Source: Anaerolineae bacterium
GTDB lineage: Bacteria; Chloroflexota; Anaerolineae; B4-G1; SLSP01
Direction: 5' to 3'
Assembly: GCA_049975205.1 (NCBI GenBank)
Contig: JBNGDL010000002.1
Coordinates: 132,498-196,497 of the forward strand
DNA: 64,000 nucleotides
The translations under genes and the position numbers were made by a program. Shown one piece after another: positions 13,047-28,755 of the stretch; within the stretch, counting starts at the first letter, position 1; each line of letters begins with the position of its first letter. The notes under the pieces are model-generated. The model was given only the letters and a program-made list of their open reading frames with translations, was not told where the DNA came from and made no database searches.

Positions 13047-14756
13047 ATGCTAGAGCGATTGCGATCGTTCTTCCTTCCTCCGACGTTCGAGAGCGACGAG
13101 AAGACGCGGGAAGCGCATTTGGCCTACCTCGTGGCGTGGCTCTTCGTGATTCTCCCGGCGGCATACGGGCTCTTCCGTCTCCTCTCCGAGACCGAATCCA
13201 CGTCAGCGGTCTTGCCACTGGCGCTATTCGGAGTGAGCGCCATCAGCGGCGTCATTCTCGTCGTGATCCACCGCGGTTCGGTGAAGGTGGCGAGCTGGCT
13301 GCTGGTGATAGCAAGTTGGATAGGCTTCTTGTTGCTCAGCTGGAACCTAGGTGGCGTCCGGGATGCTAGTTACGCCGGTTTGATTCTTGTTATCGTCTTG
13401 GCGGGTCTGCTGCTGGGCGGCACCGCGAGTGCCGTGGTGGTGGCGTTCAGTGTTCTCCTGGGCTGGTTCCTGGTCGATGCCGAAGTATCCGGCATACTGC
13501 CAGCGGACTATGATGCGCCCGCCGACGTGCTTGCGAGTTTCGTAGCGATTTTCACGATGGCTGCTGGATTGGTTGCTGTCGCAAGCCAGGGATTCCGGCG
13601 GTTGTTGACTCGCATTCGTCAGAATGAGCGGCAGTTGGAGATCCGCAACCGGCAGCTTCAGGCGATGCGAGAGTCACTTGAGCAGCGTGTTGCTGAGCGT
13701 ACGTTGGACCTCGATAAACGCTCTCGTTACCTCGAGGCCGCCGCTGAGGTCGCGTACGCTGCGGGCCAGATCTTGGATGTTGAGGACCTGATGCGCGAAT
13801 CGGTCGATCTGATCCGCGACACCTTCGATCTCTACTACGTGGGCCTCTTCCTGGTCGACGGGGCCCGTGACTACGCTGTCCTGCGTGCTGGCACCGGTGA
13901 GGCAGGACGCACGATGCTGGCCCGAGAGCATCGTATTCGCGTCGGACAGGGCATGGTGGGGTGGGCGATCGAGAACAACCAGAGTCGTGTTGCCCAGCAT
14001 GCTGAGGAGGATCGCGTCCGCCTTGTAATGTCTGAGCTGCCTGAGACGCGGGCGGAGGCGGCGCTACCGTTGCGGGCGCGAGGAAACGTTATCGGTGCGC
14101 TCACAGTCCAGAGCGTGGTGCCCGACTACTTCAATGAAGCCACCGTGACGACGCTCCAGACCATGGCGGATCTCCTAGCCATTGCTCTGAACAACGCAGA
14201 GTTGTTTGAGGAGCGTGAGCGGGCAATGGCAGCGGTGCGGCGAGCCTATGGCGAGGTCGCGACGCAAGCGTGGGACGAACTCCTGCGCGCCCAAGATGAT
14301 TGGGGTTACCGCTACACAGACGGTATCGTCCGCCCGTCGGATCAAGTATCGGAGACGGTGCAGGAAGCGCTGCGACGGGGCGAACCGGTCTATGACCTGG
14401 AACAGCGCGCGTCAGAGGTGGCGATTCCTCTGCGAGTGGGTGGGGAGACCATCGGTGCTATCGGCTATCGACGCCGCGCCGAAGAAGGCGCTTGGGAGGA
14501 GGAGGATGTGGCCTTCCTAAGCGCTTTGACGGAGCAGTTGTCGCAAGCTCTTGATAGCGCGCGGCTGTTGGATGAGAGTAGGAAAACCGCGGCCTTGGAG
14601 CAGGCCATCGTCCAGGTCACGTCGCGCATCCGGGCAGAGGTTGAGATCGAGGCTGTCCTGGAGCGGACGCTTGCCGAGTTAGGAGCCGTCCTGGAAGCCG
14701 ACCAAGGCCACGCGCTTCTGACAATCGATGCTGCCTCTGGGGAGGAGACGCGATGA
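13047..14756 (+). CDS. Polytopic (about 6 TM) membrane protein with S-helix, GAF + mini-GAF, no output domain, protein E
   Basis: RBS GGGAGGA sits 6 nt upstream of the ATG. About six hydrophobic helices are followed by a coiled coil 'LEQRVAERTLDLDKRSRYLEAAA' with no HAMP. The canonical GAF contains 'FDLYYVGLFLVDGARDYAVLRAGTGEAGRTMLAREHRIRVGQGMVG...LPETRAEAALPL..VIGALTVQS'. The mini-GAF contains 'WDELLRAQDDWGYRYTDG'. The tail is 'VTSRIRAEVEIEAVLERTLAELGAVLEADQGHALLTI'. Confidence 0.75.
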   Translation: MLERLRSFFLPPTFESDEKTREAHLAYLVAWLFVILPAAYGLFRLLSETESTSAVLPLALFGVSAISGVILVVIHRGSVKVASWLLVIASWIGFLLLSWNLGGVRDASYAGLILVIVLAGLLLGGTASAVVVAFSVLLGWFLVDAEVSGILPADYDAPADVLASFVAIFTMAAGLVAVASQGFRRLLTRIRQNERQLEIRNRQLQAMRESLEQRVAERTLDLDKRSRYLEAAAEVAYAAGQILDVEDLMRESVDLIRDTFDLYYVGLFLVDGARDYAVLRAGTGEAGRTMLAREHRIRVGQGMVGWAIENNQSRVAQHAEEDRVRLVMSELPETRAEAALPLRARGNVIGALTVQSVVPDYFNEATVTTLQTMADLLAIALNNAELFEERERAMAAVRRAYGEVATQAWDELLRAQDDWGYRYTDGIVRPSDQVSETVQEALRRGEPVYDLEQRASEVAIPLRVGGETIGAIGYRRRAEEGAWEEEDVAFLSALTEQLSQALDSARLLDESRKTAALEQAIVQVTSRIRAEVEIEAVLERTLAELGAVLEADQGHALLTIDAASGEETR

Positions 14757-16507
14757 ACGAGCGCGGGCGTCGTCGCTTGGATGGTGTGCGCCAAGCCTGG
14801 CATCGCCTTGTGACGGTCAACGGCTCCGCCGCGACTCACCTCGATGCGGAGAAGGTTCGCAAGGCTGTGCTGCTCAACACCCTGATCGTCGGGGGCTTTG
14901 GTGTGGCGGTGGGCATTACGGTGGCCATTGCGGTCGCTAGCCGTCTTGGGTATCTTGCTTTCTGGGAACAGACTGCGGGGTTCCTGTTTTTCCCCTTCAT
15001 ACTCTTGGCTATCTCGGCTCTAGCCATCACGATGGCCAAGCGCGGGGAAATTGACCGCGCGGCGTGGCTCTACGTATGGGTGACCTTTGTGACAGTTGTC
15101 GCTGCGGCGATCTTGCTAGATGGATACCGTTCGGCGGGTTGGCTGCTGGTGATCTGGCCCGTGGTTCTGGCTGGGACGTTGCTACGGGCCTGGGTAGGCT
15201 TGCTTTCTGCGTTTGGCGCTGTGGCGATCTATGGGGCCGTTGCTGCGGCTCAGGCGGCCGGCGTGTATACGCCAGTCGTGACCACGCCGGCAGGGGGCTT
15301 CCTCTTCTTCGGGCTGTTTTTCGGCTGGTTGATGATCGTGATAGCTGCGGGGCTGGTGACCTACGTCAATGGGACGAGCCTGCATCGCGCTTTGGCCGGG
15401 CTCAGTGAGGCCTCGCGCGACCTGGAGCTCGCCCGTCGGGCGTTGTCAGAAGACATCGCTGTCCAGTCACGGGAGCTGAGAGAGAGAGCCGGGCAATTCC
15501 GGGCGATCGCTGAGCTAGGGCAGGCGACGGCATCCGTGCGCGATGTGGATGAGCTCATGAGCACAGCCGTGAATCTGATCTCTCAGCGGCTGGGTTTCTA
15601 CCACGCAGGCATCTTCCTCTTGGACGCGCCGCGAGAATGGGCTGTCTTGCGTGCTGCGTCCTCTGAGGGCGGCCGGCGCATGCTTGCGCGGCGCCACCGT
15701 CTGCGTGTTGGTGAAGAGGGCATCGTGGGGTACGTGGCCGAGATGGGAATCTCGCGGATCGCATTGGACGTCGACGATGACACTGTATGGGTCAGCAGTC
15801 CGGATCTGCCCGAGACGAAATCGGAGATGGCTCTTCCCTTGATCTCAGGGGATCAGGTGTTGGGGGTTCTGGACATCCAGACGACCGCGGTTGCTGCGTT
15901 CGACGAGGACGATATCGATGTGCTGCAGGTCCTGGCGGATAGTCTCGCTACAGCCATTGCTAATGCTGAGCTGCTAGAAGAAACCCGTGCGGCCATGAGG
16001 CGGCTGGAGCGGTATCAGGAGACCGACGCGGTTCAGGCGTGGCGTCGAGCGTTAGCCCGACGAAACCTGCGTGTTGGGTATAGCTATGTTTCGGGGGAGA
16101 CGACATCATCGCGTCCCGACGAGATAGATCCCGAGGGGACCTGGAAGGGGCTCGTCGGCGTCACCCGTCAAACAACAGAAAGCGGTGAGCACACGTTGCT
16201 GGCGCCGATCACCGTTGGAGGGCGTCGTCTAGGAATGCTGTCCTTCGAGCGGAGCGCGCCCTGGAGCGATGAGGCTGTCCAGCTTGTTGAGGCTGTTCTC
16301 GACCAGCTCGACCTGGCGCTGGATAACGCGCGCCTTCTGGAGGAGACACAACGGACCGCCAGTCAGGAGGCTGCACGTAGCCAGATCGTGGGCAGGATCC
16401 GGGCTTTGACCAGCACCGATGCAATTCTGCGCAGTGCGGCGGAGCAGTTGGGTAAGGCGCTTCACGTCGAACGTAGCCGCATTCAGCTGGTGCAATTCGA
16501 TGACTGA
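14753..16507 (+). CDS. Polytopic (about 6 TM) membrane protein with coiled coil, GAF + mini-GAF, no output domain, protein F
   Basis: ATGA overlap with protein E, and RBS GGGGAGGAG upstream. There are about six hydrophobic helices. The canonical GAF contains 'LGFYHAGIFLLDAPREWAVLRAASSEGGRRMLARRHRLRVGEEGIVG..PDLPETKSEMALPL..VLGVLDIQTTAVAAF'. The mini-GAF contains 'WRRALARRNLRVGYSYVSG'. The tail is 'IVGRIRALTSTDAILRSAAEQLGKALHVERSRIQL'. Confidence 0.75.
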   Translation: MNERGRRRLDGVRQAWHRLVTVNGSAATHLDAEKVRKAVLLNTLIVGGFGVAVGITVAIAVASRLGYLAFWEQTAGFLFFPFILLAISALAITMAKRGEIDRAAWLYVWVTFVTVVAAAILLDGYRSAGWLLVIWPVVLAGTLLRAWVGLLSAFGAVAIYGAVAAAQAAGVYTPVVTTPAGGFLFFGLFFGWLMIVIAAGLVTYVNGTSLHRALAGLSEASRDLELARRALSEDIAVQSRELRERAGQFRAIAELGQATASVRDVDELMSTAVNLISQRLGFYHAGIFLLDAPREWAVLRAASSEGGRRMLARRHRLRVGEEGIVGYVAEMGISRIALDVDDDTVWVSSPDLPETKSEMALPLISGDQVLGVLDIQTTAVAAFDEDDIDVLQVLADSLATAIANAELLEETRAAMRRLERYQETDAVQAWRRALARRNLRVGYSYVSGETTSSRPDEIDPEGTWKGLVGVTRQTTESGEHTLLAPITVGGRRLGMLSFERSAPWSDEAVQLVEAVLDQLDLALDNARLLEETQRTASQEAARSQIVGRIRALTSTDAILRSAAEQLGKALHVERSRIQLVQFDD

Positions 16508-17624
16508 CCTGCGAGATTGGGTGAGGAGGCGCCACGGTCATCGACTGTTGGCTATCTTGGCGATGGTCCTCTGCATTGCCTCGTGCGCATCCGGGCCCAC
16601 GCCACGCCCAGGTGCGCCGACTGGGCGTGCGGACGACGGAGATCGTGGGCCACTGCGGGTGTTTTGGGTGAACAGTTACACGTCGGACGATCGATGGGCC
16701 CTCAGGATCCGTACAGGTATTCTCGAAGCTCTTGCTCGATCGGGGTACAGCGTGGCGGACGACACGCTCTCGTGGGGAACTTACCATCTTGAGGCGTCCG
16801 GTATCGGCGATAGCGCCGAGAGCATGCGGCGCCTGAACGAAGTCACAGAGGTCATAAGGATTCTCCAGCCGGAGATCGTCATCGTGTCAGATGACGAGGC
16901 ATTTCAGTTGATGATGCCGACGTACAGCGACCCCGAGGTCCGATTTGTCTACTGCGGTGTGGGGGCGACGGCGGAGTCGATGTCGTCGTTGCCCGACAAT
17001 GTGTTTGGGGTCCGAGAGCCGGTGCCCGCTGTTGAGACTCTGTCCATGGGTCGGTCGTTGACGGGGGACGAAGGGCGATACCTTCTGATCGGCGACGGCT
17101 CGATTACGGGACAGATCGTGACAGCTAGGGCCTATAACGAACTGGCGCGTGAGGCGTCTGATGGCGCCACACCATTCCTGGGTGTGGCGGGCTCTTGGGA
17201 GGAGTGGACGACCCTGGTGCAGAGCCGGTCGGGGGAGGTGGATTTCATCATTGTCACGAGCTACCAACCGCTTATAGATGCACAAGGGGAAGTCGTGACT
17301 GGGCAAGCGATGATGGCATGGATGCTCTCGAATGTGTCGGTTCCTGTCTTTTCGCTCTCGGAGACCTTAGTGATAGATGGGGCTGTGGGCGGACTTGTCT
17401 CCGATGCGTACAAGCAGGGACAGGCCGCCGGCCAGATCGCGGCCCGGTTGGCGCAGCACGGCGGCGTTGAGGCCGATTCGCCTTTAGTGGGGAGCGGCAG
17501 CCGATTGGTACTTAACGCAGCTGCGGCCCGTCACTGGGGCTTGCGCATTCCGGCGTTGTTTCCCATTGCGGCTGAGGTCTATCTCAGTCTGCCTGTCGGG
17601 TATGGAGGACAGCCTGATGCGTGA
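16500..17624 (+). CDS. Solute-binding lipoprotein (ABC-type substrate-binding-like fold, no transporter partner nearby), protein G
   Basis: I place the start at ATG 16500, overlapping the stop of protein F by 8 nt; the listed 16419 start runs inside F. The signal peptide has a lipobox ('RRRHGHRLLAILAMVLCIAS-C-ASG'). The alternating beta/alpha periplasmic-binding-protein style sequence includes 'LRVFWVNSY', 'IVIVSDDEAFQLM', 'FVYCGV' and 'DFIIVTSY', reminiscent of the ABC_sub_bind family. The family assignment comes from memory only. Confidence 0.6.
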   Translation: MTDLRDWVRRRHGHRLLAILAMVLCIASCASGPTPRPGAPTGRADDGDRGPLRVFWVNSYTSDDRWALRIRTGILEALARSGYSVADDTLSWGTYHLEASGIGDSAESMRRLNEVTEVIRILQPEIVIVSDDEAFQLMMPTYSDPEVRFVYCGVGATAESMSSLPDNVFGVREPVPAVETLSMGRSLTGDEGRYLLIGDGSITGQIVTARAYNELAREASDGATPFLGVAGSWEEWTTLVQSRSGEVDFIIVTSYQPLIDAQGEVVTGQAMMAWMLSNVSVPVFSLSETLVIDGAVGGLVSDAYKQGQAAGQIAARLAQHGGVEADSPLVGSGSRLVLNAAAARHWGLRIPALFPIAAEVYLSLPVGYGGQPDA

Positions 17625-20600
17625 AGCTGAGGTACGAAGGCGAGGTCTGAGCCTCCGCTGGCGCGTCATCCTGATCGTCGCGGGGATTTCGCTGCTATTG
17701 GTCACGCCTGTGATGCTCTTTGTGGGCCGGCGCTACCAGAATGCCTATCGTGAGGCTTACTGGAGTAAGGGCGATCTGGCTACTATTCAACTGCGCCAGA
17801 CGATCCGCGCTATTTCGCCCTTTGTGGAGACGGTGGGTGACGCTCCTGGCTTAGCAGCTTATTTACAGGACATCGGCGCTAACGTCAGCGACTTCGATTT
17901 CATCGCCTTGGTCGACGGCAACGGACGCGTGCTGATGCATTCGATTCCTGGCTACGAGGGCCGCACGCTCGGTGAGCTGCGAGATCTGGCGGCGGGCGCG
18001 ACTGAGCGAGGTCCGTCTGACGACCCCTATTCGGTTGTCCGGCGAGAGTTGCCCTTTGGCTTGACGTATCTCATCTGGCGCTCCATGCCGATGCCTGGCA
18101 ATGACCAAGACGAGCTCTACATTGTTGTGGGCGAGCGAGCGGCTCTGGTCGATCCTCCAATCTATCCACTGATTGCGATTGGGTTGCTTGCAGCCGTCCT
18201 TCTGGTCGTGCTCATCCGTATTTCCTTGGATCGCCTCGTGATCACGCCCCTGAACCTGCTGGCGGAAGGGGCAGCGATCGTTGGCGCTGGGGAGCTCAGT
18301 CATAAGATTCCGCTGGATCGTGATGACGAGTTTGGCTTTGTCGCACAGGCATTCAACGAGATGGCTGGGCGACTGGAAGAGATCGTGACCCGCCTCGAGC
18401 AGACCGTGACCGAGCGCACGGCAGCCCTCCAACGCCGTAATGCACAGCTCGAGGCTGCGAGCCTTGTTGGACAGGAGGCCGCTCGGGAGCGCAATGTGAA
18501 CGCTATATTGGATACTGCTGTCCGTGCGATCTCTGATAATTTCGGCTTTTACCACACGGGCATTTTCATCGTCGATGATAACAAGGAGTGGGCGATCCTC
18601 AGATCGGCTTCCTCAGAGGGCGGCAGGCGGATGCTGGCCCGAAATCATCGCCTGCAGGTCGGACAAGTCGGCATCGTCGGGCACGTTGCAGCGTCCGGTA
18701 GACCTCGCGTTGCCCTCAACGTGGGCCAGGATGCTGTCTGGTTCAACAACCCGGATTTACCCATGACGAAGTCTGAGATGGCGCTGCCGTTGATCTCGGA
18801 GGGCGAGGTCATCGGTGTGCTGGACGTCCAAAGTCAACAGGTATCCGCCTTTGCGGACGAAGACATCAGTACGCTTCAATTGATGGCCGATCAGCTGACC
18901 GTGGCCCTGAATAACGCTCGGGCACTCGAGGTGACAGAATCCGCGCTCGCCGAGCTACGAGCGCTACAGGTAGACTTCGCGCGGAGTGGATGGGCCCGGA
19001 TCTCGAACCGAGCGCGGCCTGTTGCTTACGAATATGACCGGGTCGATACAGCGCCAGTGGCGCCGCTGGAGGTGCCAGCGGAGCTCGCAGAGGGCAAGGT
19101 CGAACATAGTCTTGTAACTGACGGCGGCGTGCCGATGGTTCTGGAGGAGCTGCGGGCAGGGAACCAGGTCCTGGGCTACCTTGGCCTGTCGGATTCGCGC
19201 CGCACTTGGTCAGAGGAGGAATTGGCCTTCATTCACAGCGTCGGGGAGCAAGTGGCACTCGCATTGGATAACGCGCGGTTGTTCGAAGACACACAGCGCA
19301 ACGAGCGACAGCAGTACCTAATTAGCCAGGTCCTGCAGGCAGCCTCAGCCCCCGGCCTCAGCAGCGATGAAGCCCTGGTGGAGATCGCTAGGGTCTTGGC
19401 TCACGGCCTAGATATGGCGGTTGCGATTCTGACTTTCGAGCAGCTGCAGGTGCCAGTGATCCAGGCGCACACCTTCGTCAGCCCAGAAGGAGAGCCGCTT
19501 CCCCTCTTCGTGGAAGGGTCTGGGCTCTCGTCAGAGCAATCCGCCTTCCTGCAAGGCCTTGTCGAGACTGACGGGGGATCCGTTGCGCCTCTCCTCGGTG
19601 TGACGGAGAGCCCGTCCGCCGCCGATCCAGACGCTCGCCGTACCTTGCGTGCCTACGATACCGAGCGCGTTCTCTACGTTCCGATCAGGCGGGCTAGTGG
19701 GCTGACCAGTGGCTGCATGAGCTTGGTTCAGTATCTCGATGCACCTCACTTTGACTCTGACACGCGGGAACTGATGGAGACCTTGGCGGGGCAAATCGCT
19801 GTAGTGCTGGAGAACCTGACGCTTTCCGAGGAGACCCGTCAGCGCTCGGAAGAGCTCCGCCAGCTCTATCGGATTTCGTTGAGGTTGGCCGAACTCCTGG
19901 AGCCAGACGACGTGCTGGATGAGTTGGTGAGCCAGGGGGCAGTATTGCTGAATGCCGATGGTGCCAATCTATGGGTCTACGATGCTAACGCAGAGATCCT
20001 TGCGTTGAGGTCTAGCAACGGGGGCGGTGCTGAAGGTGAGCTCGGCCGCCGCCTCCGATTGGGTCAGGGGCTAGCGGGCATGGCGTTGGCGCAGCAGCAG
20101 ACCGTCCGTGTCGATGATTACGCGTCTTGGCAAGACCGCATTCCTGATCTCGTGAGTCCAACCTTACACGCGACGATGGCGATCCCGCTGGTGGGCCGAT
20201 TCGGGCCTCTTGGTGTTCTGGTGCTGCTGTCTCGTCAGATCGGTTTCTTTGGCGAGCGAGAGGCAGGCCTTGGGGAGCTCTTCGCTGCTCAGGGTGCGGC
20301 AGCCTTGGAGAACGCCCGCCTCAACCAGGACGCTCAGCGGCGGGCGGAGGAGTTCTCTCAGCTTTACGAGGCCGGCACCGACCTGATCACAATTCTGGAC
20401 TTGGAGGAGTTGCTGGACCGTGCTGCAGACTGGGCGCGGCGTATCTTCGCTGCGGAGCGAGTTGTGGTCACAGTTCGGGATCCAGAGTCGGGCGCCTTTA
20501 TCAGGGGACAGTGTGCCAGTGTGCCAGAGTATCTAGTAAGCCAGGGAGCCGATCAGGCGGCAACCGATGGACTCGTTGAGCGGTTGATGGTGTCGCGGGA

Positions 20601-22101
20601 GAGCCTGCTGGTCCCCGACGCTCGCGAGACTGCTGCACCCGACGCCGCGGAGCTTCCCCGGACGGACATGCTATCCCAGATGGGTGCGTCATTGCAGGTG
20701 GGCGACGAAGTGTTGGGTGCCATCCTCGTCAACGGGGCAGCGATCGAGCAGTTCACGCGTCGGGATCTGGATCTGCTGGAATTCCTGGCTACTCAGGTTG
20801 CATCGGCGCTCCAGAACTCCATCCAGTTTAGACAAACTGAAGAGGCCCTTTCTGTCGTGGGGCAACAGGCTCGCTACCAGACCAACATCTCGCAGGCCGT
20901 GGCACTCTTGAACGAGCGCGGCACGGATGCGACGGGTGATGTTCTCCGGCTGCTCGGCGAGGCGGCCGAGGTGCCAACTGTCCTCTACTTCGAGTCGAGG
21001 GTGAACGGAGACGGGAGCTACTGGTGTCTGCAAGCGCAGTGGGCCGCGCCCGGCCGTGCTCCTGACCGCCTCCAGGATCAGCGATTCCAGCGCTTGTCGA
21101 CCTCCGAGACTGACCCATGGGTGCGCTCGTTGAGGCAGCAGGGATACGTCATGGGTAAGCTGCGACACCTGCCAGGAGCTAAGGATGATGGCATCGTAGC
21201 ATCGGGGTCTGGCGCCGTTCTCGGGCTCGCGGTCCCCGGCGAGACGCGAATCCCGGCATTTGTCGCGCTGCTTAGAGACGACGCCGTGCTGTGGGAGGAT
21301 CAGGAAATCGTGGCGCTGCAGACGGCGGCGGCCGCGCTGTCAAACACGCTGGCCCGTGAGAGGCTTTTCGCGCAGGTCCAGCAGACCCTTAGCGAGACAG
21401 AAGCCCTCTATCGAGGAAGCGCTGCGTTAACCCAGGCTAGTGCTTATCAGGACATTCTGGATGTCCTGCTGGCGCACACGATCTTGGGAGAAGAACCGCA
21501 CATGTCGACCCTTCACCTCTTCGACCAGATGTGGAGCGGTGAGGAGCTGCCTACATACTCGGAGGTCGTGGCCTCTTGGAGCCGCGAGCCCCAGGCTGAG
21601 TTGCGGCGCAGATATGAGGTCCGTAAGTACGCCGACTCGCTTCGTGCGATGGAGGATGGGGCACCGGTGTTCGTAGAAGACCTTGAGCGAGACGCGATGC
21701 CGGATCGGAGATTGCACGCGCTCTTTGAGAGAGCTATGGGGGCCCAGAGTGTGGTCCTCGTGCCGCTAGTGGTCAGTGGGCAGAAGATTGGGTTTCTGCA
21801 CGCCGACTACCCGACGCCGCGCACTTTCCCCGAATCGGCACGGCGTCGTCTGGTAAGCCTTGCGCAGCAGGCCGCGATTGCGGCCCTCAACATCCGGCAA
21901 CTACGGGCCAGTGAAGCCCGCGCACGTCGCGAGCAGCTCATTCGGCAGATCAGCAGTCATATCCAGGAAGCACCCGACGTGCAAGGCGTGTTGGAGACGG
22001 CTGTCCGAGAGCTTGGACGAGCTTTCGGCACGTCTCACAATCGCATCCAGTTCCGACCGCCCAGCGGGGCTGGAGGGAGTCCGGGGGATGGCGATGCATA
22101 G
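17617..22101 (+). CDS. Transmembrane sensor (small periplasmic domain-HAMP-S-helix) with ~7 GAF-like domains, no output domain, protein H
   Basis: I place the start at ATG 17617. GGAGGA sits 7 nt upstream and the start overlaps the stop of protein G by 8 nt. Two TM segments flank a ~150-aa outside region. HAMP is 'TPLNLLAEGAAIVGAGELSHKIP..DEFGFVAQAFNEMAGRL' and the S-helix is 'LEQTVTERTAALQRRNAQLEAAS'. The canonical GAF contains 'FGFYHTGIFIVDDNKEWAILRSASSEGGRRMLARNHRLQVGQVGIVG..PDLPMTKSEMALPL..VIGVLDVQSQQVSAF'. The mini-GAF contains 'WARISNRARPVAYEYD'. Five further GAF-like repeats follow. The tail is 'ISSHIQEAPDVQGVLETAVRELGRAFGTSHNRIQF'. No H-box or ATPase boxes are present. Confidence 0.75.
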   Translation: MREAEVRRRGLSLRWRVILIVAGISLLLVTPVMLFVGRRYQNAYREAYWSKGDLATIQLRQTIRAISPFVETVGDAPGLAAYLQDIGANVSDFDFIALVDGNGRVLMHSIPGYEGRTLGELRDLAAGATERGPSDDPYSVVRRELPFGLTYLIWRSMPMPGNDQDELYIVVGERAALVDPPIYPLIAIGLLAAVLLVVLIRISLDRLVITPLNLLAEGAAIVGAGELSHKIPLDRDDEFGFVAQAFNEMAGRLEEIVTRLEQTVTERTAALQRRNAQLEAASLVGQEAARERNVNAILDTAVRAISDNFGFYHTGIFIVDDNKEWAILRSASSEGGRRMLARNHRLQVGQVGIVGHVAASGRPRVALNVGQDAVWFNNPDLPMTKSEMALPLISEGEVIGVLDVQSQQVSAFADEDISTLQLMADQLTVALNNARALEVTESALAELRALQVDFARSGWARISNRARPVAYEYDRVDTAPVAPLEVPAELAEGKVEHSLVTDGGVPMVLEELRAGNQVLGYLGLSDSRRTWSEEELAFIHSVGEQVALALDNARLFEDTQRNERQQYLISQVLQAASAPGLSSDEALVEIARVLAHGLDMAVAILTFEQLQVPVIQAHTFVSPEGEPLPLFVEGSGLSSEQSAFLQGLVETDGGSVAPLLGVTESPSAADPDARRTLRAYDTERVLYVPIRRASGLTSGCMSLVQYLDAPHFDSDTRELMETLAGQIAVVLENLTLSEETRQRSEELRQLYRISLRLAELLEPDDVLDELVSQGAVLLNADGANLWVYDANAEILALRSSNGGGAEGELGRRLRLGQGLAGMALAQQQTVRVDDYASWQDRIPDLVSPTLHATMAIPLVGRFGPLGVLVLLSRQIGFFGEREAGLGELFAAQGAAALENARLNQDAQRRAEEFSQLYEAGTDLITILDLEELLDRAADWARRIFAAERVVVTVRDPESGAFIRGQCASVPEYLVSQGADQAATDGLVERLMVSRESLLVPDARETAAPDAAELPRTDMLSQMGASLQVGDEVLGAILVNGAAIEQFTRRDLDLLEFLATQVASALQNSIQFRQTEEALSVVGQQARYQTNISQAVALLNERGTDATGDVLRLLGEAAEVPTVLYFESRVNGDGSYWCLQAQWAAPGRAPDRLQDQRFQRLSTSETDPWVRSLRQQGYVMGKLRHLPGAKDDGIVASGSGAVLGLAVPGETRIPAFVALLRDDAVLWEDQEIVALQTAAAALSNTLARERLFAQVQQTLSETEALYRGSAALTQASAYQDILDVLLAHTILGEEPHMSTLHLFDQMWSGEELPTYSEVVASWSREPQAELRRRYEVRKYADSLRAMEDGAPVFVEDLERDAMPDRRLHALFERAMGAQSVVLVPLVVSGQKIGFLHADYPTPRTFPESARRRLVSLAQQAAIAALNIRQLRASEARARREQLIRQISSHIQEAPDVQGVLETAVRELGRAFGTSHNRIQFRPPSGAGGSPGDGDA

Positions 22102-22170: not shown

Positions 22171-25100
22171 ATGTTCGAAGAGGACAAAGGCAAGATGGAG
22201 CTTGCAGCGGAACTGCGAGCCCTGCAGCAGCAGCTTTCTCACCTGTCCAAGGGGGATTTGGTCGAGAGAGTGCACTTCCTGCAGTCCCTCATCGATGCTA
22301 TCCCGACTCCGATCTTCTATAAGGATGCACGGGGTGTCTACCTGGGATGCAACACGGCCTTTGCCAAGCAGGTCTTGGGACTTGAGCGCGAGCAGATCAT
22401 CGGTCGCACGGTTCACGATCTCTCAGAAGTGATTCCTGCAGCTCTAGCCGATGTCTACCACAAACAGGATGTGGATCTGGTAGCGTCCCGTGGTACGCAG
22501 GTGTACGAAGCACCGGTCAGGTTCGCCGATGGCTCTCGGCGCCAGGTGCTCTTTAACAAGGCCTCACTCTTGGATTCTCACGGTGACGTCGCGGGTATGG
22601 TGGGCGTGATGCTGGATGTCACCGACACGCCGGACGAGGGGAGGCGACAGGTGGCCCTGCTGGAGGATGCTCAGCGGCGGGCCGTGCGACTGCAGACGGC
22701 GGCCGAAGTGTCCCGGATCGCCACATCGTTGCTCAGCCTTGACGAGTTGTTGCCGAAGAGCGTTGAGCTCATCCGCGAGCGGTTCGACCTCTATTACGTT
22801 GGCATCTTTCTCCTAGACGATCGGGGCGTGTGGGCAGTACTTCGAGCGGGGACCGGTGATGCGGGAAGGCAGATGCTCGAGGCCGGACATCGTCTCAAGA
22901 AGGGTAGCAGTTCGATGATCGGTCAGTGCGTGGCCGATGCTCAACCACGCATTGCCCTCTTCGTTGAGCAAGCGGAAGCTCGCTTCGACAACCCCTTGTT
23001 GCCCGAGACGAAGTCCGAGATGGCGCTGCCGCTGGTGGTACGGGGCAACGTGATCGGGGCTATGACGATCCAGTCGGAGGTCTCGGGTGCGTTCACAGAA
23101 GAGGATATCACGGTTCTCCAAACGATGGCAGATCAGCTTGCCAACGCGATTCAGAATGCGCGGCTCTTCGAGCAGATGAACCGGGCCGTCAGAGAGAATG
23201 AGACGCTTTACAACGTCAGCTCCGTTGTGGGACAGGCTCGCTCGCTTGAGGATCTCGTGCGCGCTGCGGTCGATGTTGCATCGTTCCTCGAGATGGATGG
23301 CGCGGCACTACGCGTCTTCACAAAGTGGGGCGTGGACGGTATTCCAACGGCAATGGATGTCTACGGCTTCACGCTTCGCTCTGGAAAGCCAGAGGCCTAT
23401 CACGAACGCAACACCCCTTTCAGCAAAGAGCTCTATCACTGGGTTCTCGCCGATCCCACTCAGGTTCTGATCTACGAGGATCTCGAATACCCGGCGCGCG
23501 ACATTCCCGACACGATCCGAGGGCCTATGTTGCGAGGGGGCAACCGGAGCCTGATTATGGCGCCGCTTCATTTCCGCGGTCGGGCCCAAGGTATTCTCGG
23601 CCTCTTCGGTGCCAAGGCCCTGCGGGCCCTGCCAAATCATTACGTGGAGGTCTTTGCCCGGACTCTGCTCGATCAGGTCGCGTCGGTGCTGGATCGACAA
23701 TCCCTGACAGATGAACTGGCCCAGCGCGCCTCGTACCTAGCAGCAGCGGCCGATGTCTCGCGTTCTGCTTCCTCGTATCTCGATGAGGATCTTCTCCTTT
23801 CGCGGAGCGCAGACCTGATCTGCAAGCGCTTCGACCTGGCCTATGCCGGCCTGTTTCTGCTCGATGATTCCGGGCAGTTTGCTCTACCCCGAGCCAGCCA
23901 CGGCGATGACCGATGGCAAGTCGTGGAGCGTAGTTATCGGGTGACAGCCGAGCGCACTTCCGGCATTGTGGCCTCTATTCTCGATGGGCGCGTGGTCGTT
24001 GATCTGGACCGTGAACGCGAGGCGACAGGGAGGCAGATGGAGGATTCGAACGGGCACCTTCAGAGCTCCAGTGCAGCCCTGCCTTTGATCACGCGCGGTG
24101 AAGCCATTGGCGCGTTAGTCATCCGACCTAGAGAGGGCACCTATCTGTCAAAGGACGACCTGGCGATCTTCGGTACCTTGGCCGACCAGCTGGCCAACGC
24201 CATCGCTAATGCGCGGCTGTATCAGGCCTCCCAAGAGAATCTCGCTGAACTGCAGCGTCTCCAACAGCGCTATGCGCTGGACATGTGGGACGAGTATGTC
24301 GATCGCCAGGAGATCGTTGGTTATACCTACGACCTCAATCAAGTCTCACCACTGATGACATTCGACGAGATGGAGCTCGACACCACCCTGTCAAGCGGCG
24401 ACGAGCAGGGCCGCTGGAGGCCTCTGGTGCAGCGGGGCAACGAGAGTGGAGATGGCGCATCTCTGCGACAGGCGTTGCAGATCCGTGGGGAGCCTGTGGG
24501 CCTGATCAGCTTTGAGGAGCCTGGCGCAACCGTGGACTGGACGGAAGATCAGATCATGGTGCTGGACGCTGTGCACGAGCAGCTGGAGCTCGCCCTTGAG
24601 AACCGGCTGCTGATTGACCGCTCCCAGCGTGCGCTCCAGGAGGCCCGACAGCGCGAGTCTGAGCTGGCGTTCCTGCAGGAGATCTCAGCTCTACTCAATG
24701 CCACCAACGATGTGGTCGGTGCCCAGGCGGAGCTGCTGACGCGTCTGCGGGAGTTCGTCTCGGTTGATCAGCTCACGTTGGCAGGATATCAGCAGGATGG
24801 CGTCCTTCGTTTGTTGGGGAGCACGGGGAACGCCATGCTAGCCTACGGCGCCTTGGGTGATACCGTGTTTGCGGACGGCTCTGGCTTCCAGTGGGTCGCG
24901 ACGAACGGGTCGAGTGTCTCCGAGGCAGACCTGCGGCTGGAGCAGCGCTTCCGAGAAGATGAAGCCCTCGCCGCTCAGGGACTGGCCTCGCGCCTTCTTA
25001 TGCCACTCATGCTTGGGCAACGCATATTGGGCGTCCTTGAGCTCGGCAGTGTTCAGCCTGAGGCCTTCGAGAGATCTGAGTTAATGCCGGTCCTTCTGCA

Positions 25101-28100
25101 AGTTGCAGCACAGGTTGCATCGGCGATGGAGCGGGGGAACCTGCTTCGAGTCGCGCAGCTTAGCGCAGAGGAGTCGCGACGGCTCTATGAGGCTACGAGT
25201 GATCTCGCTGAGGCTCTAGATGCAGAGGACGTCCTTGAGGCCATTGCGCGCCATGCGTTCCCGGATGCCACAGCGTGCGCAGACATGGCGCTCTATGTGA
25301 CCGATCCTGCTACACGGGCCGAGCATGACTGGCTGGAGGTTGTGGCCTCCCTTCGATCCGGCGACCGGCCCGCGGCGCTGGATGTGGGCAGTCGCTTGCG
25401 AGCCGATGAGATGCCAGCCCTCGCGCTTCTTGGTGAGGAACAGCTCATCTACGTTGAAGACATTGAGGCAGACCGCCGCTTGGACGACCAGACACGGCAG
25501 ACTTACCTTGCGAACGGGGTGGGCGCGTTGCTCATCGCGGCGCTCTCCACGGGGGTCGGCCCGGCGGAGCGGATGGGTATCCTGCGGATTCGCTTCAGCG
25601 AACCCATCGAGGTTGGCGAGTCGGATCTGCGACTCTATCGCACGGTCTCAGATCAGGCTGCTGTCGTTCTCTCAAACCGCCAGCTCTTCCAGGAATCGCA
25701 GGCCCGTATCGCACGGCAAGCTGTCGCGGTTGCGCTCGCGAACCTCACGACGTCTCTGTCGGAGCGGGAACCGCTGCTACTGGCCTCAGTCGACTTCCTC
25801 CGGACCCGCTTTGACCTCTACTTCGTGGGTATCTACCTTCTCGATGATCGAGGAGAGTGGGCGACACTGGAGGCCGGCACGGGCGAGGTCGGGCAGAGAT
25901 TGATGCGGATGGGGCACCGGGTGCAGGTGGGGAGCGATACGATGGTCGGTCGCTGTACCGATGAAGGTCAGCGACAGCTGATCCTGGACTTGGACCCAGA
26001 GGCGGCCTCGGTTGAGAACCCTCTTCTGCCGGATGCGCGTACGGTGACCGCTTTCCCGTTGATCAGTCGAGGTCAAATCAACGGTGTGCTCACGCTACAG
26101 AGCGCGCAACGATTCGCCTTCACCGAGGAGGATCTGGCAACCCTTGAGCTGATGGCGAACCAGTTGGCCAACGTCATCGAAAGCGCGAACCTATACGAGC
26201 GCTCGCAGAGCTCACTGGCAGAGACGAGGATGCTCTATCGTATCGCTCAGCAGATTGCCGACGCGCGGACGGTGCAGGCTGTGCTGCAGGCGGCCGTCGA
26301 TGGCATCTCACAGCGCAGCGAGCCGGATTGGGTCCTTGCCGGCGTGCTGGAGCCGCGTCAGGATCCCTCTGTGTTGCGTCTTGTCAACGTGTGGAATCGC
26401 GATGGGGGCTCTCTGCCCGTGAGCGAGCTCCCTCTCAACAAGATAGGAGAGTTCTATGAGTCGCTGCAACTGGAGGAGCGATTCGTAACTCCTGATATTA
26501 CACAGGACCCAAGGGCCGGGGGCCTGATGCGGCGTGTCTTCGCCAACCTCGGGGTCAAAGCGACGGCGGCCTTCCAGCTGCGGGTCCGCGGCGTCCAGTA
26601 CGGCACGATTATGATCCACAGTGAGAACACGCGGGAGTTCACCACAGCAGAGCTGAGCTTCTATGAGAATGTGGCGCGCCAGGCCTTTGTCGCGTTGGAG
26701 AACATCAACTTGGTTGAGGCCACGCGAGAGCAAGCTGAGCGGCGTGATATTCTGAACCAAGTGCTGCGAACGGCATCGAGTTCTCTCGATCAGCCGACGA
26801 TCCTGCAAGATGTCGGTCAAGTCATCGCCCACCGGCTAGACATGCCGGTCATGATGTGGGAATGGTCCGGGACTGGGCTGCGTCTGACGAGCCTACACGA
26901 CGCTGGCGGGCGCAATCTCAGGGTCGAGGCGGAGAGATGGCAGCTCAACCAGGCCTCAGAGGCGGCGTTGGCGCCGCTTCGTGCAGTGGTGGAGAGACGG
27001 CAACCTCTTGCCCTCCCCTCCGACGAGGCGTCCGTCCTGAGGGCATTAGGAGCGCTTCTGCGCACAGAGCTCGTCGAGGGATACGCGGTGCCCCTCACGG
27101 CGCGGGACGTGGTCTATGGTTTGATCGTCTTGGGCCGCCAGGAAGGGCACGACGAGATCGATGAGTCCGAGCGAGAGTTCATGCACAGTGTCGGCACCAA
27201 CGTGGCTGTGGCTTTGGAGACTGCGAGCCTTTACCGCGATGCTCAGGAGACCGCGGAGAAGCTGCGTGAAGTGGACGAGCTGAAGAACCAGTTCATGGCG
27301 AACATGTCCCACGAACTCCGGACGCCCCTGAACTCGATTATCGGATTCTCCCGGGTGATGCTGAAGGGTATCGATGGCCCTCTCACTGACATGCAGCAGA
27401 CAGACCTGAACGCGATCTACGACAGCGGTCGACACCTGCTGAATCTGATCAATGATATCCTCGACATCTCGAAGATCAACGCCGGTAAGATGGAGATTGT
27501 CTTCGAGCCGGTTGATCTCAAGGCCATGATCCAGAGCGTAATGTCCACGGCGATGGGATTCGTCAAGGACAAACCCGTCAAGCTTCGTACGGACGTCCCG
27601 GAGGATCTCCCGGTCGTCGTTGCGGACTCACGCAGGATCCGGCAGGTGCTGATCAACCTGTTGGGCAATGCTGGGAAGTTCACGGAGGAGGGCTTCATCG
27701 AGGTCTCTGCGACCTATGATGACTATCAGGTCATCGTCAGTGTGAGGGACACCGGCATCGGCATCCCACCAGATCGCATCCAGGCCGTCTTCGAGCAGTT
27801 TGAGCAGGTCGATTCTAGCTCGACCCGCCGGTATGGTGGTACGGGGTTGGGCGTACCCCTGAGCCGTGAGTTCGTGCGGCTCCACGGTGGCGATATGTGG
27901 ATACAAGAGTCCGTGGTCGGGCAGGGCACGACGTTCTGTTTCTCCCTTCCGATTGGGGGACCCGACACCCTGGACGAGGAGAGCGGCAGGGACAAGAGCG
28001 CTATGGGCCGGGTCGTGCTCACCGTAGATGACGACGAGAGCGTTGTGACGCTCTTCCGACGTTATCTGGAGAAGCAGGGCTATCGTGTGTTCGGCCTGAC

Positions 28101-28755
28101 GACGGGCGACCGGGTTGTGGAGGAGGCCAGACGTCTCAAGCCCTACGCCATCACGTTGGACGTCATCATGCCGGGAAACGACGGTTGGGAGGTCATTCAG
28201 CAGCTAAAGGCCGACCCGGAGACCTGTGAGATCCCCATCATTGTCTGTTCAATGCTGGGCGATAAGGATAAAGGCCTCAGCATGGGCGTGGCCGACTATC
28301 TGGTGAAGCCAATCTCCGAGGAGGCCCTGCTTGAGGCCCTTGAGCGGATCGGCGAGACTGAGAGGGGATATGTGTTGGTGGTGGATGATAGCCCGGAGGA
28401 CCGGAAGCTGCTGCGCCGCATTCTTGAGAGTGCCGAGTACAGGGTCGAGGAGGCTACCGGCGGGGCTGAAGGTATCGAACGGGTGCAGACCCATCGGCCT
28501 AGTCTGGTGATTCTTGATCTGATGATGCCGGAAGTGGACGGCTTTGCCGTGCTGGAGTGGCTTAAGGCTGAGCCGCAGACTCGTCAGATTCCGGTGATCG
28601 TTGTGACGGCGAAGGAGCTGGACGCCGAGGAACGCTCCCGTCTGCAGCAGCGGGTCGAGGCCCTGTTACAGAAAGGGCTCTTCGATCAGCAGCAGTTGTT
28701 GGAGGACGTGAGCTCGGTACTCTCTCGTCTTTCAGAAAAGAGGAGGCCTCATTAG
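22171..28755 (+). CDS. Cytoplasmic giant hybrid histidine kinase: PAS-(GAF x ~9)-HisKA-HATPase-REC-REC, protein I
   Basis: No TM segment is visible. The PAS domain contains '[31 protein letters not shown]...VGVMLDVTD'. About nine GAF-like repeats follow, and repeats 1, 3 and 7 are of the canonical type. The H-box is '[32 protein letters not shown]' (His codon 27310-27312), the N box 'LLGNAGKFT', G1 'DTGIGIP' and G2 'GGTGLGVPL'. REC1 contains '[27 protein letters not shown]' and REC2 contains '[28 protein letters not shown]'. Confidence 0.85.
   Translation: [2194 protein letters not shown]

What the first reader, a model, noticed from the sequence alone, without database searches (positions are those of the whole stretch)
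16500..17624. Orphan solute-binding lipoprotein translationally coupled between two sensors
Protein G has a lipoprotein signal peptide (LLAILAMVLCIAS|C) and a periplasmic-binding-protein-like alternating beta/alpha sequence. No ABC permease or ATPase gene occurs anywhere in the 64-kb window. Its ATG (16500) overlaps the stop of sensor F by 8 nt. Its stop (17622-17624) overlaps the ATG (17617) of sensor H by 8 nt, and a GGAGGA for H lies inside G. H has only a small (~150 aa) periplasmic domain. Binding proteins that present ligands to membrane sensors are established in other systems, for example LuxP-LuxQ, TorT-TorS and ChvE-VirA. G is therefore a plausible ligand receptor feeding H, or the whole array. 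This would be the first handle on what the cluster senses.
Basis: partly seen in the sequence, partly recalled or inferred. Interest (0 to 1): 0.6.

Follow-up and report, generated by a model that had tools for sequence, protein, structure and literature searches.

The report
Binding lipoprotein paired with GAF sensor
A membrane-tethered nutrient-binding-type protein with no transporter is kept, gene-to-gene, in front of a membrane sensor across a whole family of Anaerolineae, so it most likely catches a ligand for that sensor; this trick is known, but here it uses an unlisted binding-protein family and a sensor with no enzyme output.

Summary
G (16500-17624, 374 aa) overlaps F's stop by 8 nt. 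It also overlaps H's ATG by 8 nt, and H's GGAGGA lies inside G's Gly-Gly codons. G has a lipobox Cys29 that is conserved in at least 90% of 50 homologues.

AlphaFold2 (pLDDT 88) gives a type I periplasmic-binding fold. The nearest structures are the PF04392 aromatic-amino-acid binders 3LKV, 6HNI and 3LFT.

No ABC gene lies in the window; the nearest ATPase is 43 kb away. The genome's three PF02653-type permease loci each carry their own binding protein.

In 61 genomes of the same family, 46 of 52 H-type sensor domains have a G orthologue directly upstream. Distant free-standing G relatives also precede Cache-HAMP sensors, with kinase or GAF outputs. Related domains are fused to GAF, GGDEF, kinase and dCache proteins.

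H's outer domain models as an sCache fold (pLDDT 92), closest to the WalK and CitA sensor domains.

Caveats:
- Five congeners keep H without G, and their H sensor domain is not more diverged.
- The ligand is unknown.
- G-H binding is untested.

Verdict: G is a dedicated co-sensor for H. This is a new variant of the LuxP-LuxQ / HptA-HptS principle, of moderate interest.

The parts
14753..16507 (+). F: multi-pass membrane protein with GAF and no output domain; it is the conserved upstream neighbour of G
   Evidence: Pfam finds GAF only. An F-type gene of 583-629 aa precedes G in L001-L003, L005, L007 and L034-L036. F's stop overlaps G's ATG by 8 nt.
16500..17624 (+). G: 374-aa lipoprotein with a type I periplasmic-binding fold, a divergent relative of PF04392
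   Evidence: Translation. Pfam PF04392 scores 24.4 bits, below the 25.9 cut-off. AF2 pLDDT 88. Foldseek and profile hits to 3LKV, 3LFT and 6HNI.
16500..16586 (+). Signal peptide and lipobox of G (residues 1-29; Cys29 codon at 16584-16586)
   Evidence: I-A-S-C lipobox. The Cys is conserved in at least 90% of 50 homologues. A low-confidence Pro-rich tether follows at residues 30-50.
17604..17609 (+). GGAGGA Shine-Dalgarno for H, encoded by the Gly-Gly codons of G's C-terminus
   Evidence: Sequence. The G/H junction overlaps by 1, 4 or 8 nt in 9 of 9 orthologous loci; GGAGG sits in the C-terminal Gly-Gly codons in 8 of them and GGTGG in one, L003. 35 of 50 homologues end in GG within the last 9 residues.
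17617..22101 (+). H: TM, sCache-like outer domain, TM, HAMP and six GAF stretches, with no kinase or other output; the proposed partner of G
   Evidence: Pfam. AF2 of residues 1-275 gives pLDDT 92. Orthologues are 36-62% identical over the N-terminal 275 residues.
17725..18165 (+). Extracytoplasmic sensor domain of H (residues 37-183), a PDC/sCache fold and the proposed docking site for G
   Evidence: AF2 topology is a long helix plus a five-stranded sheet. The nearest structures are the WalK extracellular domain, CitA, KinD and DctB; LuxQ is also listed. No Pfam model matches it. Invariant residues are Y44, R45, P68, D75, F95, G103, H108, S109, L124 and Y168.
22171..28755 (+). I: soluble PAS, multi-GAF, HisKA, HATPase and two REC domains; a hybrid kinase and the likely downstream output of the block
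   Evidence: Pfam. It follows H in all orthologous loci read.

Best explanation
G is a signalling-dedicated, membrane-tethered solute-binding protein. It is exported, lipidated at Cys29 and held on the outer face of the cytoplasmic membrane by a flexible Pro-rich tether. Its two-lobed cleft closes on a still-unknown small molecule. The loaded or unloaded form docks on the sCache-like outer domain of H, which is made in fixed proportion from the same mRNA by translational coupling.

The change then passes through TM2 and HAMP into H's chain of GAF domains. H has no enzymatic output, so the signal presumably reaches the soluble hybrid kinase I and the receivers encoded in the cluster.

Shown here:
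- the fold, the export and lipobox signals, and the absence of a transporter;
- the conserved, coupled G-H gene pair;
- the sCache fold of H;
- fusions of the same domain to signalling proteins.

Inferred only:
- ligand binding by G;
- physical G-H contact;
- the H-to-I relay.

G looks like an accessory input. Some congeners have lost it and kept H.
For: 1. Fold. AF2 gives pLDDT 88. The closest structures are the PF04392 binders 3LKV, 6HNI and 3LFT.

2. Export. The lipobox Cys is conserved, and LspA is present.

3. No transporter.
- There are no ABC genes in the window.
- G is the only PF04392-like gene in the genome.
- All three PF02653 permease loci have their own binding protein.

4. Gene pairing.
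- 46 of 52 H-type sensor domains in 61 family genomes have G directly upstream on the same strand.
- Starting from the most divergent H orthologues, 3 of 3 are preceded by a G homologue.
- The stop/start overlap is kept in 9 of 9 loci; the SD sits in Gly-Gly codons in all nine (GGAGG in 8, GGTGG in L003).

5. Portability. Distant free-standing G relatives precede three kinds of sensor:
- sCache-HAMP-HisKA (L016);
- sCache-HAMP-GAF (L017);
- dCache-HAMP-HisKA (L028).

6. Fusions.
- The same domain is fused as the outer domain of TM-GAF proteins in sister arrays.
- It is also fused to GGDEF, Ser/Thr kinase, histidine kinase and dCache domains.

7. Partner. H's outer domain is a confident sCache fold, the class that binds partner proteins in WalK and LuxQ.
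Against: - Five species of the same genus have an H-like gene but no G. In the two read in detail, F abuts H directly.
- In those two species, H's sensor domain is not more diverged relative to GAF1. The identity ratio is 0.84 and 0.72, against 0.47-0.74 in species with G. H's outer domain is therefore constrained independently of G.
- No interaction prediction or measurement was possible.
- The ligand is unknown.
- The two published specificity positions of the aromatic-amino-acid binders (VC_1101 Ala246 and Tyr262, PMC6816091) are Ser287 and Ala303 in G, and Gly at the second position in most orthologues.
- G scores just under Pfam's cut-off for PF04392.
- The assembly is 89% complete, so a transporter could be missing.
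Confidence: 0.62

Rival explanations
1. G is a ligand-independent accessory or scaffold protein. It would use the binding-protein fold only as a docking body that modulates or stabilises H's sCache domain or helps assemble the receptor array, as the membrane-anchored WalH/WalI (YycH/YycI) proteins do for WalK.
For: - H's outer domain is structurally closest to the WalK extracellular domain, including a WalK-YycH model.
- G can be lost while H persists with an undiverged sensor domain.
- The published specificity positions of the aromatic-amino-acid binders are not kept.
Against: - Residues near strand ends that line the cleft in type I binding proteins are nearly invariant across 50 homologues: D199, the G294-A295-x-G297-G298 motif (G294 itself is invariant) and P282 (invariant), with G153, G170 and V171.
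- The same domain serves as the N-terminal outer sensor module of many different signalling proteins. That is the usual signature of a ligand-binding input.
Confidence: 0.15
2. G serves F, or several receptors of the array, rather than H specifically.
For: - F is as conserved an upstream neighbour as H is downstream, and F's stop overlaps G's start.
- The window holds two dCache receptors and other TM-GAF proteins that could also be partners.
Against: - F appears to have a multi-pass membrane domain without a sizeable outer domain. This is read from the sequence only and was not modelled.
- In distant lineages the F-type gene is absent while a Cache-HAMP gene still follows the G-like gene.
- The SD-in-Gly-Gly coupling ties G's synthesis to H.
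Confidence: 0.12
3. G is an ordinary transport binding protein that delivers its substrate to an ABC importer encoded elsewhere. Its position among the sensors would then be incidental or purely regulatory.
For: - The nearest structures are transport proteins for Phe, Tyr and Trp (PMC10443332).
- The genome is 89% complete and holds 96 ABC ATPase hits.
- Binding proteins can share importers.
Against: - There is no ABC gene within 43 kb.
- All three PF02653-type permease loci have their own binding protein.
- The G-H adjacency is kept over family-level divergence, with G at 31-44% identity.
- Homologous domains are fused to signalling outputs.
Confidence: 0.06

Closest known systems
HptA-HptS (Staphylococcus aureus) and XylFII-LytS (Clostridium): binding proteins dedicated to a membrane sensor (from my own knowledge and the review PMC8050422)
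   Same: The binding protein has no transport role. It is encoded next to and co-transcribed with the membrane sensor, is tethered or secreted at the outer face, and is proposed to relay ligand occupancy to the sensor's outer domain.
   Different: Those partners are true histidine kinases, whereas H has only HAMP and GAF domains. Those binding proteins belong to other Pfam families. The interaction and ligand are proven there and only inferred here.
LuxP-LuxQ (Vibrio AI-2 sensing)
   Same: A type I periplasmic-binding fold is paired with a PDC/Cache-type outer domain. LuxP and LuxQ both appear among the structural neighbours of G and H.
   Different: LuxQ has a tandem PDC domain and a kinase output, and LuxP is Peripla_BP_4. 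G is lipid-anchored and PF04392-like. G is dispensable in some congeners.
PF04392 transport binding proteins: VC_1101 (3LKV, Phe), SP1069/TrpX (3LFT, Trp), CD0873 (6HNI, Tyr)
   Same: These are the best sequence-profile and fold matches. CD0873 is also a lipoprotein (PMC6816091).
   Different: They sit in operons with a permease and an ATPase, for example trpXYZ (PMC9382623). G has no transporter, scores below the Pfam cut-off, and differs at the two published specificity positions.
WalK with WalH/WalI (YycH/YycI)
   Same: An sCache outer domain of a membrane sensor is regulated by membrane-anchored accessory proteins encoded in the same operon. WalK's outer domain is the nearest structure to H's.
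   Different: WalH and WalI are not binding-protein folds and are not known to bind ligands. WalK is a kinase.

Membership tests
Pfam PF04392 (ABC_sub_bind) | Sequence score above Pfam's gathering cut-off (25.9 bits) | tested here: not met
   G scores 24.4 bits over residues 265-351 only. Many orthologues carry a precomputed PF04392 hit, and the family profile matches 3LKV at E 2e-18. G is therefore a divergent relative, not a clean member.
Pfam PF04392 (ABC_sub_bind) | Type I (cluster B) two-lobe periplasmic-binding fold closest to the solved PF04392 structures | tested here: met
   AF2 pLDDT 88.3. Foldseek ranks 3LKV, 6HNI, 6HNJ and 3LFT first, with E 7e-14 to 4e-12 and TM (target) 0.74-0.79.
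Pfam PF04392 (ABC_sub_bind) | Encoded with a cognate PF02653-type permease and an ABC ATPase | tested here: not met
   No ABC gene is in the window. The genome's three PF02653 loci have their own Bmp or Peripla_BP_6 proteins.
Pfam PF04392 (ABC_sub_bind) | Aromatic-amino-acid pocket (specificity positions equivalent to VC_1101 Ala246 and Tyr262) | tested here: inconclusive
   By alignment these positions are Ser287 and Ala303 in G, with Gly at the second in most orthologues (PMC6816091). The residues that hold the amino and carboxylate groups are not named in the text I could read.
Binding-protein-dependent membrane sensors (LuxPQ, HptAS, XylFII-LytS, TorTS, AioXS type) | Binding-protein gene adjacent to and co-transcribed with the sensor gene, conserved across species | tested here: met
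   8-nt overlap here. 46 of 52 pairs are adjacent in the family, and 9 of 9 junctions overlap.
Binding-protein-dependent membrane sensors (LuxPQ, HptAS, XylFII-LytS, TorTS, AioXS type) | Sensor has an extracytoplasmic domain able to dock the binding protein | tested here: met
   H residues 37-183 form an sCache/PDC fold between two TM helices, pLDDT 92.
Binding-protein-dependent membrane sensors (LuxPQ, HptAS, XylFII-LytS, TorTS, AioXS type) | Physical, ligand-modulated complex between the binding protein and the sensor | not testable with these tools
   No multimer prediction tool is available. The roughly 50 sequence pairs within reach (only about 12 were fetched here) are too few for coupling analysis.
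Binding-protein-dependent membrane sensors (LuxPQ, HptAS, XylFII-LytS, TorTS, AioXS type) | Sensor carries an enzymatic transmitter (kinase, cyclase) or an MCP signalling domain | tested here: not met
   H has HAMP plus six GAF stretches and nothing else. The kinase is the separate protein I.
Bacterial lipoproteins | Signal peptide ending in a lipobox with an invariant Cys, plus Lgt and LspA in the organism | tested here: met
   I-A-S-C29 lipobox; the Cys is at least 90% conserved. LspA is present. Lgt is absent from this 89%-complete assembly but present in 13 of 15 congeners.

The most novel reading that the evidence does not exclude
The PF04392-like binding lipoprotein plus a Cache-HAMP membrane protein may be a portable two-gene input cassette. 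Lineages would plug it into different transmitters: a histidine kinase in L016 and L028, and output-less multi-GAF receptors here. In this Anaerolineae family it would be one detachable input channel of a many-receptors-to-one-kinase GAF array. It can be lost (G-less congeners) or hard-wired by fusion (the SBP-TM-GAF paralogues).
Probability: 0.4. Interest if true: 0.65.

Novelty: new variant of a known kind. Interest (0 to 1): 0.5.

Why it matters
Binding-protein-mediated activation of sensors is thought to be widespread, but only a few systems are documented. The 2021 review (PMC8050422) counts thirteen binding-protein families, and its text never mentions ABC_sub_bind.

G would add a PF04392-like family to that list. 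It would also be the most tractable entry point into an uncharacterised array of output-less GAF receptors in Anaerolineae. G is a small soluble domain that can be expressed and screened for ligands. Finding its ligand would give the first chemical stimulus for the cluster and a way to test how receptors without an enzyme output pass signals to a separate kinase.

Tried and rejected
1. Relaxed-constraint test. If H's outer domain existed only to bind G, it should diverge faster in G-less congeners. It does not. The test therefore gives no support and argues that H has a function of its own.

2. Deletion scar. A 16-nt match links the F-H spacer of L038 to G's 3' end, including the SD. It is too short to tell from chance.

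3. Pfam on H's outer domain at E up to 5 found nothing beyond HAMP. The fold assignment rests on AF2 and Foldseek only.

4. Apparent loss of Lgt in the genus was rejected. 13 of 15 congeners have it, so its absence here is probably assembly incompleteness.

5. The search for an unpaired ABC importer found none.

7. Literature searches for PF04392 or COG2984 in signalling, and for this GAF array, found no description.

8. Residue-level pocket mapping was not possible. Model coordinates are not exposed, and the paper names only two specificity residues.
Full report
**What is in the sequence**

G runs from ATG 16500 to TGA 17624 and encodes 374 aa.
- F (14753-16507) ends 8 nt inside G.
- H starts at ATG 17617, 8 nt before G's stop.
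- GGAGGA lies at 17604-17609, 7 nt upstream of H's ATG. An earlier in-frame ATG for H at 17602 overlaps this Shine-Dalgarno, so it is the less likely start.

G begins with a positively charged stretch, a hydrophobic core and an I-A-S-C lipobox.
- In an alignment of 50 homologues, Cys29 is at least 90% conserved.
- 44 of the 50 have a lipobox-like motif.
- The public gene call of 318 aa from Val57 has therefore lost the export signal.
- Signal peptidase II is encoded in the genome.
- Lgt was not found in this 89%-complete assembly. It is present in 13 of 15 species of the genus, so I take G to be a lipoprotein.

**Fold and family of G**

- By sequence, G scores 24.4 bits on Pfam PF04392 (ABC_sub_bind), just under the 25.9-bit cut-off.
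- It is a weak match to the NCBIfam TrpX model.
- A profile of the 50 homologues matches the PF04392 structures 3LKV (E 2e-18), 3LFT and 6HNI.
- AlphaFold2 with that alignment gives pLDDT 88.3 and pTM 0.82. The model has a disordered Pro-rich tether (residues 30-50) followed by two alpha/beta lobes.
- Foldseek ranks 3LKV, 6HNI/6HNJ and 3LFT first (E 7e-14 to 4e-12). Sugar, LIV and LacI-type type I binding folds follow, with LuxP further down.

The three solved PF04392 proteins bind Phe, Tyr and Trp (PMC10443332, PMC6816091). The two positions that paper names as setting specificity (VC_1101 Ala246 and Tyr262) align with Ser287 and Ala303 in G. The second position is Gly in most orthologues. 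The ligand need not be an aromatic amino acid, and I cannot name it.

**No transporter**

- Pfam scans of the large ORFs of the window found no ABC permease or ATPase.
- A six-frame scan of the whole assembly for PF00005 found 96 hits. None is inside the window, and the nearest is about 43 kb upstream of G.
- G is the only PF04392-like gene in the genome.
- PF04392 proteins work with the PF02653 permease type. I state this from my own knowledge of the COG4120 and trpXYZ systems. That type occurs at three loci, each with its own Bmp or Peripla_BP_6 binding protein.

**Conserved pairing with H**

Searching from G found 33 close homologues, 33-44% identical, in Anaerolineae-type metagenome bins. 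In every long contig read, the order is the same:
- an F-type TM-GAF gene (about 590 aa);
- G (about 360 aa);
- a HAMP-multi-GAF gene (965-1492 aa);
- a giant GAF-HisKA-HATPase-REC kinase.

Searching from H's N-terminal 270 residues found 44 HAMP-multi-GAF homologues (E 4e-166 to 6e-21); the 43 aligned over at least 96% of the query are 36-99% identical. The three divergent ones whose contigs I read are each preceded by a gene of 363-426 aa. hhalign confirms two of these as G homologues, and Pfam annotates the third as PF04392.

In a scan of 61 genomes of the window's own family, 51 have the H sensor domain and 50 have a G-profile match at E of 1e-10 or better, of which 46 are free-standing G orthologues. 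46 of 52 H hits have a G hit directly upstream on the same strand.

At nine orthologous loci the G stop and H start overlap by 1, 4 or 8 nt. H's SD lies in the Gly-Gly codons at G's C-terminus, as GGAGG in eight loci and GGTGG in one (L003). 35 of 50 homologues end in GG within the last 9 residues. Part of G's conserved C-terminus is therefore dual-coding for H's ribosome-binding site.

**The pairing is older than the GAF array**

More distant free-standing G relatives in other Anaerolineae lineages are followed by different sensors:
- an sCache-HAMP-HisKA kinase (L016);
- an sCache-HAMP-GAF protein (L017);
- a dCache-HAMP-HisKA kinase (L028).

The constant is a Cache-HAMP membrane partner, and the output varies.

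Domain fusions point the same way.
- In most genomes of the family, a second copy of the domain is the N-terminal outer domain of a protein of about 760-790 aa. Its order is SBP, TM, signalling helix, GAF, and it sits within the same arrays.
- Remoter homologues are fused to GGDEF, Ser/Thr kinase, PAS-histidine kinase or directly to dCache domains.

**The partner**

H residues 1-275 model with pLDDT 92. The model is TM helix 1 running into a long helix, then a five-stranded sheet, then TM2 and HAMP.
- Foldseek places the outer domain (residues 37-183) with the WalK extracellular domain, CitA, KinD and DctB. LuxQ is lower in the list.
- No Pfam model recognises it.
- It is well conserved. Invariant residues are Y44, R45, P68, D75, F95, G103, H108, S109, L124 and Y168.

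**Evidence that limits the claim**

Five species of the window's own genus have an H-like gene but no G.
- In the two read in detail, F is followed by H after a short spacer: about 85-125 nt in L037, depending on which H start is used, and 36 nt in L038.
- Their H sensor domains are not more diverged relative to GAF1 than in species that keep G.

H's outer domain therefore has a constrained role without G, and G behaves as an accessory input. Direct interaction, ligand binding and the relay from H to kinase I are all inferred.

**Comparison with known systems**

The logic matches known binding-protein-dependent sensors: LuxP-LuxQ, HptA-HptS, XylFII-LytS, TorT-TorS and AioX-AioS (PMC8050422, PMC11113362). 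Those sources also note that such genes usually lie side by side.

Two things differ here.
- The binding-protein family is a PF04392-like clade, which is not mentioned in that review.
- The partner has no kinase, cyclase or MCP module.

I therefore call this a new variant of a known kind.

Earlier notes of this scan on other Anaerolineae genomes reach a similar reading. I treat them as leads only. My conclusion rests on the calls cited above.

Noticed in passing
window 16500-16668: The public gene call for G is 318 aa and starts at Val57. It drops the signal peptide, the lipobox and the tether. Homologues show the longer form is right.
   Followed up: yes
L037 (G345:C73) 1500-1700 and L038 (G357:C495) 4300-4340: Two congeners have F directly followed by H, with no G between them. 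In all, five of 13 sampled species of the genus have an H-like gene without G, and seven have neither.
   Followed up: partly
L007 3657-5933; L005 5938-8229; about 40 hits: Most genomes of the family carry a fused paralogue inside the same arrays: signal anchor, PF04392-like domain, TM, signalling helix, GAF (about 760-790 aa). The window's own genome has none.
   Followed up: partly
window 17598-17624 and the G/H junctions of L001-L015: The conserved C-terminal Gly-Gly of G is encoded by GGAGG, which is the Shine-Dalgarno of H. This is a case of dual coding across an overlapping gene pair.
   Followed up: yes
own genome (G000): No Lgt (PF01790) hit in this assembly, although LspA is present. 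Most congeners have Lgt, so this is probably assembly incompleteness.
   Followed up: yes
L037 about 4800-5300 (minus strand): The dCache-HAMP-GAF protein of G345 carries a tandem hexapeptide repeat (MSQQTG/LSQQTG, about six copies) inside its outer domain.
   Followed up: no
P0094, P0150: These proteins have a PF04392 domain followed directly by dCache_1 and a further sensor domain in one extracytoplasmic region. They are a fusion counterpart of the SBP plus Cache pair.
   Followed up: no
L005 828-1973: One sister array also contains a Peripla_BP_5/6-type binding protein between a MASE11-GAF gene and a dCache-HAMP-GAF gene. A second binding-protein family is therefore recruited to these arrays.
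   Followed up: no
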